Shown in pieces: positions 32,824 to 60,463 of a DNA stretch of 64,000 bases. This DNA is from an uncultured Actinomycetota bacterium (lineage in GTDB: Bacteria > Actinomycetota > Actinomycetes > Propionibacteriales > Nocardioidaceae), in NCBI GenBank assembly GCA_963815825.1, contig CAWFII010000016.1, positions 14,932-78,931 on the forward strand. The letters run 5' to 3'. Made by a program: the position numbers and the translations under genes. The notes under the pieces were generated by a model. That model saw nothing but the letters and a program-made list of their open reading frames with translations, did not search any database and was not told the DNA's origin. Within the stretch, counting starts at the first letter, position 1; each line of letters opens with the position of its first letter.

Positions 32824-33249
32824 TCAGGTGAGCTCTGCGTGTCCCTCGGGGCTGGAGTCCCGGAGGAACTGGTCGCAGCGCTCGTGCTCGGGCTGCTCGC
32901 CGATGCGAGCTGCAGCCTCGGCGAGGGCGGCCAGCGCCCGGAGGAAACCGCGGTTCGGCTCGTGCTCCCAGGGCACCGGGCCGTGGCCCTTCCAGCCGTT
33001 GCGGCGCAGCATGTCCAGACTGCGGTGGTAGCCGACCCGGGCGTAGGCGTAGGCGGTGACGTCGTCCTCGTCGGCGTCAGCCAGCGACTCCTCGGCCAGG
33101 GTGGCCCAGGCCACGGGAGACTCGGGGTGTCGGCGTACGACGTCACGAGCCTGCGCGCCCGACTCGATCTCGGCCGCCGCCGGGTCCGTCGGGAGCAGGG
33201 TGGGAGGGGGACCGGCGATCAGGTCTCTGCCGATGTGTGAGTCGCTCAT
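32824..33249 (-). CDS. DUF3151 family protein
   Basis: AYAYARVGYHRSLDMLRRNGWKGHGPVPWEHEPNRGFLRAL. Confidence 0.92.
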   Translation of the reverse strand: MSDSHIGRDLIAGPPPTLLPTDPAAAEIESGAQARDVVRRHPESPVAWATLAEESLADADEDDVTAYAYARVGYHRSLDMLRRNGWKGHGPVPWEHEPNRGFLRALAALAEAAARIGEQPEHERCDQFLRDSSPEGHAELT

Positions 33250-33280
33250 GGCTCGATGGTCCCTGACAGCCCCTTCCGCT

Positions 33281-34648
33281 TGTAACGCGGGGTTATGGAC
33301 CGTAGACCCGCGGTGTACGCCGCACTACCAGTCCACTGCCCCGCACCAGATCATCGAGGGCGCGAGGCGGTAGGGCCCGAGGCGGTACGGCCCGAGGCGG
33401 TGACGGCTCAGCGCGGTGACGGCTCAGGCGCGCCGGCGCAGACGCTGGCCCTCGAGCTCGCGGGCGGTGCGAGCGAGCCGATCGGGGAGCACGTCGCCGA
33501 AACGAGCGACGGTCACGGCGTACTCCGCGAGCAGGCGGGCCCTGGCGCGGGCCCGAGCAGCTCCGAAGAGGTCGTCCCACACCAGCCGGGACATGCCCAG
33601 CCCCTGGGCGCAGATCTCCTGCTGGCGCCTCTTCTCCTCCCAGACGACGTCCCCCGCAGGGCGTAGGGCGAAGCCGCCCTGCTCGGGCCTGGAGTACTTC
33701 ACCCGGCCGTCGAACTCGAAGACGTGACAGCCGACCCTCAGGTCGGTCCAGTAGACGCGACCCCCCACCCGGACGGGGAACTGGGTGTGCGGCTCGCCGA
33801 TCCCGAGCTCGTGGACGAGCAGCCGGGAGAGTGACTCACCAGGCGTCTCGGCCCCCGCATCGGCCAACGCGACAGCGGCGCGCGCGACCGTGATCCCGGG
33901 CCAGGACCGCTGCCCGGCCAGCTCAGCGTGGAGGTCGAGCACGGAGAGGCCGTGTGCGAGCGCATGGTCCGCGGCCACCAGCGCGTGTCCGAGCCCGTGC
34001 TCGCGACCGAGATCGACGACCGTGCGCGCCACACCTGTGACGGGGAGCATGCCGGCCACCGCGAGGGTCGGGATGCGTTTGCCGAGGTGGTGCTTCACGC
34101 CGTGCTCGGTGCGTGAACCGCCCACCCCGGGGCGGGTGATGTGCACCAGCGGGTGCCGTGGCCGGAGCAGTGGCAGTCCGTGCGATCGCGCCGCGGAGTC
34201 GTGGCTCAGCATGTGCGGCTGGGTCATCGTCAGGTGCGCGGCGCGGTCACGCAGCGCCATCTGCCCGGTGTGCGCGTCGAGCGCCTCCCAGGTCGTCCGC
34301 TCGACATAGACGCCGCGGCGGACGACGACCCACGCGCCGTCGACGGCCGTGAGCGTCTTCAGCTCACGCTCCGAGTAGTCGGCCTCGACGGCCTGGCGCC
34401 GGGACACCAGGCCCCCCTGGCGTGCCGCCACTGCGGCGAGGTGCGGTCTCATCCCGGCAGCGTCGTGCCGCGTGGGGAGGCTGGTCGAGGCCAGTCCCTG
34501 TGGTGTGCAGCGGGTACGCCGACCCGGTCCCTGTGGACGCGAGCCGGCGACACGCGTGACGTCCGGCTCGACACCCGATCTCCTGCGGTGTTGTGGACCG
34601 TGAGTGCGTCGTACGCGACGTGTGCACGGTCCATAACCCCGCGTTACA
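33281..34648. mobile_element. Putative non-canonical mobile unit: AbiEi/DUF559-like gene bounded by 23-bp perfect inverted repeats
   Basis: TGTAACGCGGGGTTATGGACCGT at 33281-33303 and its exact reverse complement at 34626-34648. No transposase and no clear target-site duplication. Confidence 0.55.
33424..34452 (-). CDS. AbiEi-antitoxin-N-terminal-like / DUF559-type nuclease-domain protein, copy 1
   Basis: N-terminal wHTH-like QGGLVSRRQA...WVVVRRGVY, LSHDSAA, VTGVARTVVDL, AETPGES, C-terminal TDL...EFDGRVKY. Confidence 0.8.
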   Translation of the reverse strand: MRPHLAAVAARQGGLVSRRQAVEADYSERELKTLTAVDGAWVVVRRGVYVERTTWEALDAHTGQMALRDRAAHLTMTQPHMLSHDSAARSHGLPLLRPRHPLVHITRPGVGGSRTEHGVKHHLGKRIPTLAVAGMLPVTGVARTVVDLGREHGLGHALVAADHALAHGLSVLDLHAELAGQRSWPGITVARAAVALADAGAETPGESLSRLLVHELGIGEPHTQFPVRVGGRVYWTDLRVGCHVFEFDGRVKYSRPEQGGFALRPAGDVVWEEKRRQQEICAQGLGMSRLVWDDLFGAARARARARLLAEYAVTVARFGDVLPDRLARTARELEGQRLRRRA

Positions 34649-34669
34649 GCGGGGAGGCGAGCGGGGGGG

Positions 34670-35701
34670 TCAGCCGATCGAGTGCCCGGTCGCGCGCAGG
34701 TTCTCGCAGGCGGTGACGACGCGGGCGGCCATGCCGGCCTCGGCAGCCTTGCCCCAGGCGCGGGGGTCGTAGAGCTTCTTGTTGCCCACCTCGCCGTCGA
34801 TCTTCAGGACACCCTCGTAGTTGGCGAGCATGTGGCCGGCGACCGGGCGGCTGAAGGCGTACTGGGTGTCGGTGTCCACGTTCATCTTGATCACCCCGAA
34901 GTCGACCGCGGCGGCGATCTCCTCGGCGCTGGACCCGGAGCCGCCGTGGAAGACCAGGTCGAACGGCTTGGCGTCCTGGTCGAGGCCGAGCTTCTCGCAG
35001 ACCGCCTGCTGCGCCTTCTGCAGGATCTCCGGGCGGAGCTTGACGTTGCCGGGCTTGTACACGCCGTGGACGTTGCCGAACGTCAGCGCCGTCATGTAGC
35101 GGCCGTGCTCACCGGTGCCGAGCGCCTCGACCGTGGCGAGCGCGTCCTCGGTGGTGCTGTAGAGCTTGTCGCCGGCTCCTCCCTCGACGCCGTCCTCCTC
35201 GCCGCCGACCACGCCGATCTCCACCTCGAGCACGATCCTGGCCTCGGCGGCCTTCTTGAGCAGGTCCTGGGCGATCGAGAGGTTCTCCTCCAGCGGCACC
35301 GCGGAGCCGTCCCACATGTGTGACTGGAACAAGGGGTCCTCTCCGTTGCGCACCCGCTCGAGCGAGATCTCCAGAAGCGGCCTGACGAAGCCGTCGAGCT
35401 TGTCCTTCGGGCAGTGGTCGGTGTGCAGCGCGATGTTCACGGGGTACTTCTTCGCCACCTCCCGCGCGAACGCGGCGAACGCCACCGACCCGGAGACCAT
35501 GTCCTTGATCGTCGGGCCGGAGAGGTACTCGGCACCGCCCGTGGAGACCTGAATGATCCCGTCGCTGCCGGCTTCGGCGAAGCCGGCCAGCGCGGCGTTC
35601 AGGGTCTGCGAGGACGAGACGTTGATGGCCGGGAAGGCGAAGGCGTTCTGCTTGGCGGCATCCAGCATCTCGGCGTACTTCTCAGGCGTTGCGATCGGCA
35701 T
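34670..35701 (-). CDS. fbaA: Class II fructose-bisphosphate aldolase
   Basis: ALHTDHC, SHMWDGS, EIGVVGGEEDG, FGNVHGVYKPG, VFHGGSGS, KMNVDTD, KLYDPR. Confidence 0.97.
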   Translation of the reverse strand: MPIATPEKYAEMLDAAKQNAFAFPAINVSSSQTLNAALAGFAEAGSDGIIQVSTGGAEYLSGPTIKDMVSGSVAFAAFAREVAKKYPVNIALHTDHCPKDKLDGFVRPLLEISLERVRNGEDPLFQSHMWDGSAVPLEENLSIAQDLLKKAAEARIVLEVEIGVVGGEEDGVEGGAGDKLYSTTEDALATVEALGTGEHGRYMTALTFGNVHGVYKPGNVKLRPEILQKAQQAVCEKLGLDQDAKPFDLVFHGGSGSSAEEIAAAVDFGVIKMNVDTDTQYAFSRPVAGHMLANYEGVLKIDGEVGNKKLYDPRAWGKAAEAGMAARVVTACENLRATGHSIG

Positions 35702-59112: not shown

Positions 59113-59231
59113 TCCGCCCCGCAGTCCTCTCACCTCGGCCCGTGACCCGGCCTCGAGAGTACCCACCCCCTCGGCGGTCGCCACACGAAACCCGCTCCGC
59201 GGACCGGCCCCCCGGTGTCCCCGGGGGACTG

Positions 59232-59261
59232 CCGGTTTCCCCGGTCGGCCGGGGAAACCGG
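59232..59261. repeat. 13-bp perfect hairpin, adjacent to a degenerate GTTGTAC hairpin, upstream of AbiEi copy 2
   Basis: ccggtttccccgg-tcgg-ccggggaaaccgg; then gttgtacggcgatcc...ggatcgc. Confidence 0.7.
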
Positions 59262-59411
59262 GGGTTGTACGGCGATCCTTTGCCCCCCAACCCCGGGGAT
59301 CGCTGCTCCACCCCACCCCTTTTGCGTCCACACCCGGACACGGGCCGCGGCGGATCCCCAGATGATCCTTCCGTACGACGTACGCCCCGGCGCTGAGCCC
59401 ATCCTCGTCTC

Positions 59412-60362
59412 ATGCACGATGAACTTCGGTCGATCTGTGATGCCCATGGTGTCTTCCTGCGCCGCGACGCGCTCTGCTTGGGATACGACGACCGTGCGCT
59501 GTCCAGAACGATGAGGGCGGGCACGATCACCCGAATCCGTCACGGAGCCTACGTCTTCTCCGAGCGGTGGCGCGGCCTCGATGATCCCGGTCGGCACCTG
59601 CTCCGAGCGCGCGCCGTACTTCGAACCGCGCAGTCGCAGGTCGCGCTCTCGCACACGACGGCCCTGCTCGTGATGGGCGTACCGGTGTGGGATCTGTCCC
59701 TCGACGAGGTGCACCTCACGCGTCTCGATGGACGGGCAGGGCGTCGCGAAGCCGGCGTGGCGCAGCATCGCGGACGCATCATCCCTGGCGACGTTCGGGC
59801 TTGCGGCGAGCTCCTCGTCACCTCTCCGACACGCACCGCGCTCGACCTGACCACGATCACCGACGTCGAGCACTGCCTGCCCGTCGTGGATCACCTGCTG
59901 CACGACAAGGCGGTGACCAAGGCAGACCTGCGCACCCGTGCCGCAGGGATGACGTTCTGGCCGGGCACACTCGCGACAGACCTCACGATCCGCCTCGCTG
60001 ACGGTCGATCCGAGTCCGTCGGTGAATCAAGAGCCAGTCACCTGTTCTGGCGCGAAGGCCTGCCAAAGCCCCAGCTGCAATACGAGATCGTCAACGCTCG
60101 CGGCGAATGCGTCGCGAGAGTGGACTTCGCCTGGCCGGAGTACGGCGTCTTTCTGGAGTTCGACGGCAAGGCGAAGTACGAGAAGCTGCGGAAGGAACGC
60201 GAGTCGGTTCTGGACGTCGTACTCCGTGAGAAGAAGCGTGAGGAGATGATCTGTCGCCTCACCGGCTGGCGGTGCGTTCGCATCACGTGGGCCGATCTCT
60301 ACCAGCCGCACGCGACAGCCCGATACATCCGCTCGGTGCTCGCGGGCGGCCCAGTTCACTGA
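59412..60362 (+). CDS. AbiEi-antitoxin-N-terminal-like / DUF559-type nuclease-domain protein, copy 2
   Basis: HGVFLRRDA...IRHGAY, LSHTTA, VTSPTRTALDL, SESVGES, ARVDFAW...LEFDGKAKY; homologous to 33424-34452. Confidence 0.82.
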   Translation: MHDELRSICDAHGVFLRRDALCLGYDDRALSRTMRAGTITRIRHGAYVFSERWRGLDDPGRHLLRARAVLRTAQSQVALSHTTALLVMGVPVWDLSLDEVHLTRLDGRAGRREAGVAQHRGRIIPGDVRACGELLVTSPTRTALDLTTITDVEHCLPVVDHLLHDKAVTKADLRTRAAGMTFWPGTLATDLTIRLADGRSESVGESRASHLFWREGLPKPQLQYEIVNARGECVARVDFAWPEYGVFLEFDGKAKYEKLRKERESVLDVVLREKKREEMICRLTGWRCVRITWADLYQPHATARYIRSVLAGGPVH

Positions 60363-60377
60363 GACAAGTCGGATGGA

Positions 60378-60425
60378 GTTGTGCACCGATCCCTGTCCCT
60401 GTGGGGTGAAGTTTCGGTGCACAAC
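60378..60425. repeat. REP-like hairpin GTTGTGCACCGA...TCGGTGCACAAC downstream of AbiEi copy 2
   Basis: 12-bp perfect arms with a 24-nt loop. Confidence 0.75.
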
Positions 60426-60463
60426 GTCAGGATTCACCGGTCAGCCGGGGAAACCTGCGTCGG

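What the first reader, a model, noticed from the sequence alone, without database searches (positions are those of the whole stretch)
33281..34648. AbiEi/DUF559-like gene enclosed by perfect 23-bp inverted repeats and inserted into conserved synteny
Seen: TGTAACGCGGGGTTATGGACCGT (33281-33303) and its exact reverse complement (34626-34648) bracket a single gene. Each repeat is the 5' arm of an imperfect hairpin (GCGGG...CCCGC on the left). No transposase, no AbiEii toxin and no obvious target-site duplication. Established: DUF3151 and fba are near neighbours in the actinobacterial purA-fba-pyrE-clpB block, and inverted REP pairs flanking a gene are the REPIN/RAYT architecture. Inference: these supposed antitoxins may be the catalytic or maintenance proteins of a REP-associated selfish element that uses a PD-(D/E)xK-type domain (TD...EFDG) instead of a HUH transposase.
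Basis: partly seen in the sequence, partly recalled or inferred. Interest (0 to 1): 0.72.

Follow-up and report, generated by a model that had tools for sequence, protein, structure and literature searches.

The report
Nuclease gene framed by own palindromes
A DNA-binding nuclease gene in a soil actinobacterium lies between two copies of a 70-base palindrome that is also scattered through the genome; across about 100 related genomes the palindromes occur only where the gene does, as in the REP/RAYT partnership of proteobacteria but with an unrelated enzyme, and I found no published description.

Summary
The 23-mers are the outer arms of two complete 70-nt imperfect palindromes (33281-33350, 34579-34648) around a 342-aa gene. 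Its predicted fold is an AbiEi-like DNA-binding half plus a Vsr-like PD-(D/E)xK nuclease domain.

The palindrome is a dispersed repeat: about 8 further type-A units in this genome. It is nevertheless tied to this gene family.
- 68 of 78 homologues from Nocardioides/Marmoricola species have such flanking inverted repeats; 0 of 74 displaced controls do.
- 17 of 19 distant paralogues have flanking repeats of their own sequence.
- Three protein clades carry three matching repeat types.
- In 101 same-genus genomes the repeat motif is abundant only where the gene is present. The four exceptions are a pseudogene, a deletion scar and two incomplete genome bins.
- At least four independent gene losses leave no repeats.
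- Single units have been gained since this genome split from its relatives.
- No RAYT-type transposase exists in the genus.

The gene is not a recent insertion. It has sat beside fba across many species, sometimes inverted.

Best reading: a REP/RAYT-like partnership built on a non-HUH nuclease. The association is shown. Binding, cutting and mobilisation by the protein are inferred.

The parts
33281..33350 (+). Left palindromic unit (type A), 70 nt. Its conserved outer arm TGTAACGCGGGGTTATGGACCGT faces outward, towards the DUF3151 start codon 32 nt away. The inner arm is degenerate.
33424..34452 (-). 342-aa gene: an AbiEi-like DNA-binding half (about residues 1-200) plus a Vsr-like PD-(D/E)xK nuclease domain (about 205-295) and C-terminal helices. 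E206, D237, E246, D248 and K252 are conserved in 77-80 of 80 homologues.
34579..34648 (-). Right palindromic unit (type A), 70 nt, inverted relative to the left one. Its conserved outer arm lies 21 nt from the fba stop codon. It is 91% identical over 79 nt to the solitary copy on genome contig C41.
34499..34537 (-). Two sense-strand boxes upstream of the gene: ACCACA (34504-34499, 5' end at -52) and GTCCACA (34537-34532, -85). They resemble the actinobacterial DnaA box TTGTCCACA (recalled from knowledge) and the GTCCA(C/T)AAC of the palindrome arm. They may be an operator or promoter element.
33357..33430 (.). Short tandem repeats between the left unit and the gene's stop codon: three copies of a 15-nt AGGGC(G/C)CGAGGCGGT-like unit and two of GCGGTGACGGCTCAG. 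Role unknown.
32824..33249 (-). DUF3151 gene, a conserved neighbour. It is not part of the element and marks its boundary.
34670..35701 (-). Class II fructose-bisphosphate aldolase gene, a conserved neighbour. Homologues of the nuclease gene lie next to fba in 49 of 80 loci, on the same strand and just downstream of it in 39 of them.

Best explanation
The locus is one half of a gene-plus-repeat partnership. The gene is chromosomally fixed, single-copy and largely inherited at one locus. It encodes a sequence-specific DNA-binding nuclease: an AbiEi-type winged-helix head fused to a Vsr-like PD-(D/E)xK domain. It is framed by two outward-facing copies of its own 70-74-nt palindrome. That palindrome has conserved termini (TGTAACGCGGnGTTA ... 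TAACnCCGCGTTACA) and a lineage-specific interior kept palindromic by compensatory changes. Solitary copies of the same palindrome sit in intergenic DNA close to gene ends. Shown here: the physical framing, the matching of repeat type to protein clade, the co-occurrence and co-loss of gene and repeats, the gain of single units, and the absence of any RAYT-type transposase. Inferred: the protein binds the conserved ends of the palindrome, as duplex, cruciform or single-strand hairpin, and probably its own upstream GTCCACA boxes. It nicks there with the Vsr-like domain. This activity generates new copies or keeps existing ones alike, with host repair or replication completing insertion, because a hydrolytic nuclease cannot transfer strands by itself. 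Functionally it resembles a REP/RAYT system built on an unrelated enzyme.
For: Architecture: 68 of 78 homologues (44-91% identity, one per species) have a flanking inverted repeat scoring >=20; 0 of 74 displaced controls do (maximum 18.5). 62 of 80 end exactly at TGTAA...TTACA. 17 of 19 distant paralogues (30-39% identity, several families of the order) have flanking repeats of unrelated sequence, against a control maximum of 15.5. Type matching: the A, B and C protein clades are framed by A, B and C units. All 7 B genes have B units on both sides and lie at a second syntenic locus. Genome-specific interiors are shared by gene-flanking and dispersed copies, for example TTATTGCATGTG in G061 and TTATTGATTCTG in G063. 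Co-occurrence: in 101 genus genomes, 35 with the gene have a median of 19 motif hits and 66 without have a median of 2 (Mann-Whitney p 2e-14; 5e-8 after removing 4 arms per gene copy; Fisher p 8e-12). The exceptions are G052 (pseudogene), G015 (deletion scar), and G093 and G087 (76-78% complete). On an fba+DUF3151 tree the gene needs at least 4 well-supported changes, and gene-less sisters (G021, G005, G013, G018 and others) have only background counts. Mobility: the unit at genome contig C39:46922 is absent from the orthologous site in G007 and G098. At the C27 site G098 has no unit, G007 has one and G000 has two. Protein: pLDDT 91; Foldseek finds AbiEi 6y8q (E 7e-5) and I-Bth0305I 3r3p (TM 0.73), Vsr 1cw0 and 1vsr. 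The putative catalytic residues are conserved. Palindromy: 82% of cells pair against 64% when shuffled; 24 of 35 pairs show compensatory change; 0 of 500 shuffles reach the observed value. No Y1_Tnp in 101 genomes. A second paralogue in this window is framed by a different repeat that has 17-21 copies in the genome.
Against: No experiment or read-level evidence shows binding, cutting or movement by this protein. PD-(D/E)xK nucleases are not known to transpose DNA on their own. The palindromes also frame ordinary genes (enoyl-CoA hydratase, HAD hydrolase, Sir2) and lie next to gene ends in general, so part of the framing could reflect a general intergenic preference. Co-loss would also be expected for a regulator and its binding sites. 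G000 holds about 22 type-B units but no type-B gene in the assembly, which is 91.6% complete. Four gene-bearing genomes have no dispersed copies beyond the flanks. The tree used for independent losses comes from two linked genes and may not be the species tree.
Confidence: 0.55

Rival explanations
1. Regulator and regulon. The protein is an autoregulated DNA-binding protein, possibly with a repair or defence nuclease activity. The palindromes are its operators, kept by selection at its own gene and at target genes. The protein does not mobilise them.
For: The N-terminal half resembles AbiEi, a known autorepressor. Conserved sense-only GTCCACA boxes lie at about -88 and -60 in 73 of 80 loci. 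Co-occurrence and co-loss fit a regulator with its sites. Units lie close to gene starts and stops.
Against: Units are discrete 70-74-nt blocks of fixed length with 35-bp arms and compensatory covariation, far larger than an operator. They appear as whole insertions at sites that are empty in sister genomes. Most follow stop codons rather than promoters. Within a genome their interiors are alike and between genomes they differ, which points to copying rather than independent origin. The nuclease residues are strictly conserved.
Confidence: 0.2
2. Autonomous IS-like element. The gene plus both palindromes transposes as one unit, and the solitary palindromes are its gene-less derivatives or footprints.
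For: There are terminal inverted repeats with sharp TGTAA...TTACA ends. The family occupies several different loci: the fba locus, the B locus and others, with 31 of 80 not near fba. The gene lies in both orientations relative to fba, 39 against 10. The gene tree conflicts with the flank tree: G000 and G007 share 91% identity in this protein but 86.6% in fba, which suggests lateral replacement.
Against: There is one copy per clade per genome and never multiple identical copies. The locus is the same across dozens of species. There is no target-site duplication. Solitary units share nothing with the interior of the element. Units are gained singly.
Confidence: 0.12
3. Invertible cassette. The flanking inverted repeats exist to flip the gene, as a programmed inversion or phase switch.
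For: Both orientations occur at the same locus among species. [quoted passage not shown]
Against: No recombinase gene is adjacent. The promoter-side boxes lie inside the invertible segment, so flipping would not switch expression in an obvious way. This does not explain the dispersed copies or the co-loss. Assembled contigs from metagenome runs showed no inversion joint, though that test is weak.
Confidence: 0.05
4. Coincidence. A generic REP-like repeat, spread by some other mechanism, happens to lie on both sides of this gene.
For: The same units frame unrelated genes and fill gaps between convergent genes.
Against: 68 of 78 against 0 of 74 controls; 17 of 19 distant paralogues with their own repeats; strict type matching; co-occurrence.
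Confidence: 0.03

Closest known systems
REP/REPIN-RAYT systems ('REPtrons') of Proteobacteria (PMC3116915, PMC3337134, PMC5581495; listed)
   Same: A single-copy, largely vertically inherited gene is framed by inverted copies of a palindromic repeat. The same repeat is dispersed in extragenic DNA of that genome. Different gene clades pair with different repeat types, several pairs can share one genome, and the repeats disappear when the gene is lost.
   Different: The enzyme is unrelated: there is no HUH/Y1 domain anywhere in 101 genus genomes, and the fold is AbiEi-like plus Vsr-like PD-(D/E)xK. The units are long (70-74 nt), nearly perfect palindromes that move singly; a doublet arose by two separate insertions. 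Copy numbers are low (tens). The host is an actinobacterium.
AbiEi antitoxin of AbiE type IV toxin-antitoxin systems (S. agalactiae AbiEi, PDB 6y8q)
   Same: The N-terminal half has the AbiEi fold (Foldseek E 7e-5) and a weak AbiEi_4 Pfam match. NCBI names homologues 'AbiEi family antitoxin domain-containing protein'. There are repeated boxes upstream of the gene.
   Different: There is no AbiEii nucleotidyltransferase partner gene. A C-terminal nuclease domain is added. The upstream boxes are direct, not inverted. The name 'antitoxin' is very probably a misnomer here.
Vsr / DUF559 / I-Bth0305I-type PD-(D/E)xK nucleases
   Same: The C-terminal domain matches the I-Bth0305I catalytic domain (3r3p, TM 0.73), Vsr (1cw0, 1vsr) and PvuRts1I by fold. 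It carries a D...ExDG..K signature with conserved E206, D237, E246, D248 and K252.
   Different: There is no sequence-level match to Pfam DUF559, to NCBIfam or to any PDB chain. It is not next to a cytosine methyltransferase, as Vsr is, and not inside an intron or intein, as homing endonucleases are.
IS200/IS605 and other hairpin-ended elements
   Same: Subterminal hairpins define the ends and there is no target-site duplication.
   Different: There is no TnpA or TnpB. The gene is single-copy at a fixed locus. The two ends are copies of the same palindrome rather than distinct left and right ends.

Membership tests
REP/RAYT (REPtron) | Gene encodes a Y1 HUH tyrosine transposase (Pfam Y1_Tnp, PF01797) | tested here: not met
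   No PF01797 match in G000 or in any of 101 genus genomes, while 6 of 14 control genomes gave a match. The protein's fold is AbiEi-like plus Vsr-like.
REP/RAYT (REPtron) | Gene flanked by inverted copies of a palindromic repeat | tested here: met
   (68 of 78 against 0 of 74 controls).
REP/RAYT (REPtron) | The same repeat is dispersed extragenically in the same genome, with repeat type matching gene clade | tested here: met
REP/RAYT (REPtron) | Single copy per genome, mostly vertical inheritance at a conserved locus, repeats lost with the gene | tested here: met
   The gene tree is partly incongruent with the flank tree.
REP/RAYT (REPtron) | REPIN doublet (two inverted REPs) is the replicating unit | tested here: not met
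   The doublet on genome contig C27 arose by two separate single-unit gains. Doublet spacers are unrelated.
AbiE type IV toxin-antitoxin (AbiEi) | AbiEi winged-helix N-terminal domain | tested here: inconclusive
   Pfam AbiEi_4 scores 20.9 bits, below the cut-off of 25. Foldseek finds 6y8q at E 7e-5 over about 196 columns. Some homologues carry precomputed PF13338 or PF09407.
AbiE type IV toxin-antitoxin (AbiEi) | Adjacent AbiEii nucleotidyltransferase toxin gene | tested here: not met
   The neighbours are fba and DUF3151, and the same or other housekeeping neighbours in 80 homologous loci.
PD-(D/E)xK, Vsr-like / DUF559 | Restriction-endonuclease-like fold with conserved acidic and lysine residues | tested here: met
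   Foldseek 3r3p (TM 0.73, probability 1.0), 1cw0, 1vsr, 4oky. E206, D237, E246, D248 and K252 conserved in 77-80 of 80. Activity was not tested.
PD-(D/E)xK, Vsr-like / DUF559 | Match to the Pfam DUF559 model (PF04480) | tested here: not met
   No hit even at E<=10.
Insertion sequence / transposon | Known transposase, target-site duplication, multiple copies of the whole element | tested here: not met
   No transposase. No duplication beyond a palindromic 2-nt extension. The interior is unique in the genome.
Programmed inversion cassette | Both orientations within one population, plus a dedicated recombinase | not testable with these tools
   Only assembled contigs of metagenome runs were available. 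Both orientations do occur between species. No recombinase gene is adjacent.

The most novel reading that the evidence does not exclude
AbiEi-head/Vsr-fold nucleases are a second, non-HUH class of enzymes that create, move and homogenise their own REP-like palindromes. The family is large in Actinobacteria (5,513 representative clusters at E<=1e-3) and each clade is paired with its own palindrome. That would make these widely mis-annotated 'antitoxins' the actinobacterial counterpart of RAYTs, and a new catalytic route for miniature mobile DNA.
Probability: 0.35. Interest if true: 0.9.

Novelty: new variant of a known kind. Interest (0 to 1): 0.78.

Why it matters
REP/RAYT is so far the only well-described case of a long-lived, vertically inherited partnership between a single-copy enzyme gene and a population of short repeats. 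A second, independently evolved case with a hydrolytic nuclease would have three consequences. It would show that such partnerships are a general outcome of genome evolution. It would give a function to thousands of proteins now labelled 'AbiEi antitoxin domain-containing' or 'hypothetical'. It would also explain the origin of palindromic intergenic repeats in high-GC actinobacteria. The system can be tested directly, because cultured carriers exist: Marmoricola sp. Leaf446, Nocardioides aequoreus NRRL B-24464, N. zeae JCM 30728, N. pocheonensis Gsoil 818 and N. guangzhouensis 130. Sequence-specific nicking of long palindromes could also be useful as a tool.

Tried and rejected
- **Rfam:** a scan of 33150-34750 at E<=5 gave only a chance snoRNA hit, so the units match no known RNA family. 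A passing thought that the type-B unit contains a hammerhead-like CUGAUGAG was dropped for the same reason.
- **Sequence searches of the protein:** NCBIfam gave nothing. PDB gave nothing useful by sequence or by profile. Pfam at E<=10 gave only AbiEi_4.
- **Integron attC cassette:** rejected. The ends do not fit the RYYYAAC/GTTRRRY boxes, the two units are inverted rather than direct, and there is no integrase.
- **Split single hairpin:** I considered whether the gene had inserted into one pre-existing palindrome. Rejected, because each flank is a complete unit with both arms.
- **Gene-less derivative:** the C27 doublet is not a derivative of the cassette; its spacer is unrelated to the cassette interior.
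- **Target-site duplication:** none was found in 62 loci.
- **Excision or inversion junctions in public runs:** only short assembled contigs were available. The two 'joints' (33312>34626 and 33313>34620) have 28-34-nt sides with other letters between them, and are other unit copies or strains, so this was uninformative.
- **Orientation of units relative to gene ends:** the ORF-based test was too noisy in a high-GC genome to conclude anything.
- **Type-B gene in G000:** not found. The B locus of G007 has no clear counterpart in the G000 assembly.
- **Literature:** searches on DUF559, AbiEi_4, RAYT/REPIN plus Actinobacteria, and AbiEi plus Vsr found no description of this arrangement. The only trace is one table row on inversion targets.
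Full report
**1. The observation**

The 23-mer TGTAACGCGGGGTTATGGACCGT is exact at 33281-33303 (+) and 34626-34648 (-). No shuffle of the window gives a match with up to 3 mismatches. The repeat finder extends the inverted repeat to 81-nt arms at 77% complementarity.

Aligning all genomic copies shows what each arm is: a complete unit of about 70 nt. A unit has a strongly conserved 5' arm, a loop of about 24 nt and a more degenerate 3' arm. The two units in the window are 33281-33350 and 34579-34648. Both fold as hairpins, at -33 kcal/mol (z -3.2) and -49.2 kcal/mol (z -6.0).

Between them lies one ORF (33424-34452, minus strand, 342 aa). DUF3151 (32824-33249) and class II fba (34670-35701) lie outside, on the same strand.

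**2. The protein**

- Pfam sees only a sub-threshold AbiEi_4 match at residues 5-50 (20.9 bits against a cut-off of 25). It gives no DUF559 hit even at E<=10.
- NCBIfam and PDB sequence or profile searches give nothing.
- An AlphaFold2 model built on 13 homologues is confident (pLDDT 91.2, pTM 0.86).
- Foldseek against the PDB matches the first 200 or so residues to the AbiEi antitoxin of S. agalactiae (6y8q, E 7e-5). It matches the C-terminal domain to the I-Bth0305I homing-endonuclease catalytic domain (3r3p, target TM 0.73), Vsr (1cw0, 1vsr) and PvuRts1I.
- In 80 homologues E206, D237, E246, D248 and K252 are kept in 77-80 sequences.

The protein is therefore a DNA-binding head fused to a probably active PD-(D/E)xK nuclease. 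No AbiEii toxin gene is nearby, so 'antitoxin', the name NCBI gives homologues, is very probably a misnomer.

**3. The repeat is dispersed**

The assembly (G000, 3.77 Mb, 43 contigs, 91.6% complete) holds type-A arms at eight places besides the window: contigs C27 (a doublet), C36, C39, C41, C13 and C12. It also holds about 22 copies of a sister family, type B (TGTAAATCGGGGTTATGGACGCTCATCAAGGC).

Similarity between the window's element and these copies is confined to the units. The gene and the spacers are unique. Units lie in intergenic DNA, typically a few to about 40 nt from a stop or start codon.

The comparative data show that the repeat is nevertheless linked to the gene.

**4. The link to the gene family**

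(a) Framing.
- In 12 same-genus genomes every close homologue is framed the same way.
- In 80 homologous loci from named Nocardioides/Marmoricola records (44-91% identity), 68 of 78 testable loci have a flanking inverted repeat scoring at least 20. None of 74 windows displaced outward by 1 kb does (maximum 18.5), and gene-internal controls reach at most 15.
- 62 of the 80 loci end precisely at TGTAA...TTACA. The outer ends lie -144 to -221 nt from the start codon and +65 to +178 nt from the stop. Similarity ceases outside them, and there is no target-site duplication.

(b) Matching of repeat type to protein clade.
- The conserved core is TGTAACGCGGnGTTA. The next 15 nt or so are lineage-specific.
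- A second protein clade (about 50% identity) sits at a different locus that is syntenic among genomes. In 7 of 7 genomes it is framed by type-B units.
- A third clade (G014, G017; 46-50% identity) is framed by TGTAACGCTCCGTTAC units that also occur dispersed in those genomes.
- Genome-specific interiors are shared by the gene-flanking and the dispersed copies of the same genome. Examples are TTATTGCATGTG in G061 and TTATTGATTCTG in G063, which by matching contig coordinates is Marmoricola sp. Leaf446.

(c) The palindrome itself is under constraint.
- Many units are 74-nt near-perfect palindromes with quite different interiors.
- On 17 such units, 82% of cells pair, against 64% after shuffling and 31-44% with slid partners. 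24 of 35 pairs show changes on both sides. No shuffle of 500 reaches the observed covariation.

(d) Co-occurrence.
- In 101 genomes of the genus, the 35 that carry the gene (E<=1e-45) have 3-50 motif hits, median 19. The 66 without it have a median of 2. That background comes mostly from an unrelated palindrome, TGTAACTCCGAGTTA.
- Mann-Whitney p is 2e-14. It is 5e-8 after subtracting four arms per gene copy. Fisher p is 8e-12.
- The four gene-less genomes with at least 6 hits are G052, which has a frameshifted pseudogene with in-frame stops; G015, which has a deletion scar; and G093 and G087, which are 76-78% complete bins.

(e) Independence of the losses.
- On an fba+DUF3151 nucleotide tree of 25 genomes, carriers and non-carriers are interspersed. 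At least four changes are forced by well-supported branches: G008 against G021, G098 against G010, and G000/G006/G023 against G005/G013/G018.
- The gene-less sisters have only background counts.
- Caveat: these two markers are linked to the locus and may not give the species tree.

(f) No alternative enzyme. No Y1/HUH transposase (PF01797) is found in any of the 101 genomes, while 6 of 14 control genomes gave a match.

(g) Replication within this genome and beyond.
- The second paralogue in the window (59412-60362, 32% identical) is framed by a different composite repeat: GGTTTCCCCGG-N4-CCGGGGAAACC plus a GTTGTG...CACAAC hairpin. That repeat has 17-21 copies in G000 and 0 for the reversed control pattern.
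- Of 19 distant paralogues (30-39% identity) from several families of the order, 17 have their own flanking inverted repeats, against a control maximum of 15.5.

**5. History of the locus**

The gene is not a recent insertion into G000. In 49 of 80 loci it lies next to fba.

The older arrangement in the genus appears to be fba, then an MFS transporter gene on the opposite strand, then DUF3151. In another family of the order (G035) fba and DUF3151 are directly adjacent.

Where the MFS gene is present, its stop codon is the TAA inside the outer TGTAA of the downstream unit. Three gene-less genomes (G015, G004, G021) retain CGCGTTACAGCTG at that spot. These are deletion scars, not virgin target sites.

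In 10 of the 49 fba-linked loci the gene is inverted relative to fba. The segment has therefore flipped, or re-inserted, during evolution.

The protein evolves about five times faster than fba (median end branches 0.30 against 0.067). Yet G000 and G007 share 91% identity in this protein and only 86.6% in fba. The gene tree groups G000, G007 and G098 against the flank tree. This suggests occasional lateral replacement of the cassette at the same locus. I did not pursue it further.

**6. Units move, and move singly**

Ten G000 unit sites were compared with G007 and G098. Most are shared.
- The unit downstream of the etfA-like gene (contig C39:46922) is absent from the orthologous gap in both relatives.
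- At the C27 site between two convergent genes, G098 has no unit, G007 has only the right one and G000 has both.

The 'doublet' is therefore two independent insertions, each with its conserved arm next to a stop codon. It is not a REPIN-like replicating pair. Outward-facing pairs of units also frame ordinary genes in relatives (enoyl-CoA hydratase, HAD hydrolase, Sir2), which is part of the case for caution.

**7. Upstream boxes**

In 73 of 80 loci the 130 nt before the start codon carry TCCACA. There are 104 sense copies and 4 antisense copies, against 0.02 expected per 130 nt inside the genes. They cluster at about -88 and -60.

Several read TTGTCCACA, which I recall as the actinobacterial DnaA-box consensus. 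The palindrome arm contains the related GTCCA(C/T)AAC. In the window the boxes are at 34532-34537 and 34499-34504. Whether they bind this protein, DnaA or a sigma factor is unknown.

**8. Interpretation**

The best-supported reading is a REP/RAYT-like partnership built on an unrelated enzyme.

Shown:
- framing of the gene by its own palindrome;
- matching of repeat type to protein clade;
- co-occurrence and repeated co-loss;
- gain of single units;
- palindrome covariation;
- conservation of the nuclease residues;
- absence of RAYT.

Inferred:
- the AbiEi-like head reads the conserved palindrome ends;
- the Vsr-like domain nicks there;
- this activity produces or homogenises copies, with host repair or replication finishing the job.

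A hydrolytic nuclease is not known to transfer strands, so the mobilisation step is the weakest link. I put 0.55 on the functional partnership and 0.35 on the protein being the mobilising enzyme.

Rivals, in order of weight:
- regulator plus regulon (0.2);
- autonomous IS-like cassette (0.12);
- invertible cassette (0.05);
- coincidence (0.03).

**9. Prior knowledge**

I found no paper describing this arrangement. The only trace is 'DUF559 domain-containing protein' in a table of families enriched among predicted programmed-inversion targets (PMC9881135), which is presumably a by-product of these flanking inverted repeats.

Earlier notes of this scan report the same layout in at least 47 other genomes. 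One later check of a different branch upheld the observation but priced the bold reading low, after a co-occurrence test failed there. I treated these as leads only. In this genus the co-occurrence test came out clearly positive.

The wider family is large: 5,513 representative clusters at E<=1e-3 and 2,359 at E<=1e-10.

Noticed in passing
window 59225-60460 (gene 59412-60362, +): A second AbiEi-like/Vsr-like paralogue (32% identical) is framed by a different composite repeat: GGTTTCCCCGG-N4-CCGGGGAAACC plus a GTTGTG...CACAAC hairpin. That repeat has 17-21 copies in the G000 genome and 0 for the reversed control pattern. This is a second gene-repeat pair in the same genome.
   Followed up: partly
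G000 genome, e.g. C3:23347, C9:8430, C27:147456, C36:32011 (outside the window): About 22 type-B units (TGTAAATCGGGGTTATGGACGCTCATCAAGGC) occur in G000, but no type-B gene is in the assembly (91.6% complete). The B locus of G007 has no clear counterpart. Either these are orphan repeats after gene loss, or the gene lies in an assembly gap.
   Followed up: partly
window 34499-34537; loci L091-L170, -130 to -1 of the gene: Sense-only TCCACA boxes, often TTGTCCACA and so DnaA-box-like, lie at about -88 and -60 upstream of 73 of 80 homologues. There are 104 sense and 4 antisense copies.
   Followed up: partly
L054, L056, L067 (G016, G008, G019) and L055, L061, L063 (G015, G021, G004): The neighbouring MFS transporter gene ends on the TAA inside the unit's terminal TGTAA. 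Gene-less genomes keep a 10-13-nt remnant (CGCGTTACAGCTG) there, which is a deletion scar.
   Followed up: yes
L071, L075, L085, L086 (G061, G063, G019): Outward-facing unit pairs also frame ordinary small genes: enoyl-CoA hydratase at the same locus in two species, a HAD hydrolase and a Sir2 deacetylase.
   Followed up: partly
window 33357-33430: Tandem 15-16-nt repeats (AGGGCNCGAGGCGGT three times, GCGGTGACGGCTCAG twice) lie between the left unit and the stop codon, the last one overlapping the stop. No role is apparent.
   Followed up: no
most genus genomes, e.g. G017:C1:873402, G079:C1:447624: A single-copy perfect palindrome, TGTAACTCCGAGTTA, is conserved in many genomes of the genus whether or not they carry the nuclease gene. 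It is the main source of background hits and may be an operator of an unrelated regulator.
   Followed up: no
G000 contigs C13:49150 / C14:14034 and C39:9237 / C42:6011: In each of two pairs of contigs, the two contigs carry identical sequence around a type-B unit. This is either assembly redundancy (strain mixture; contamination 3.46%) or a recent duplication.
   Followed up: no
gene 33424-34452 against fba 34670-35701, compared with G007 (L090): The fast-evolving nuclease is 91% identical between G000 and G007, while the adjacent, slow-evolving fba is only 86.6% identical. The gene tree and the flank tree disagree. This hints at lateral replacement of the cassette at the same locus.
   Followed up: partly
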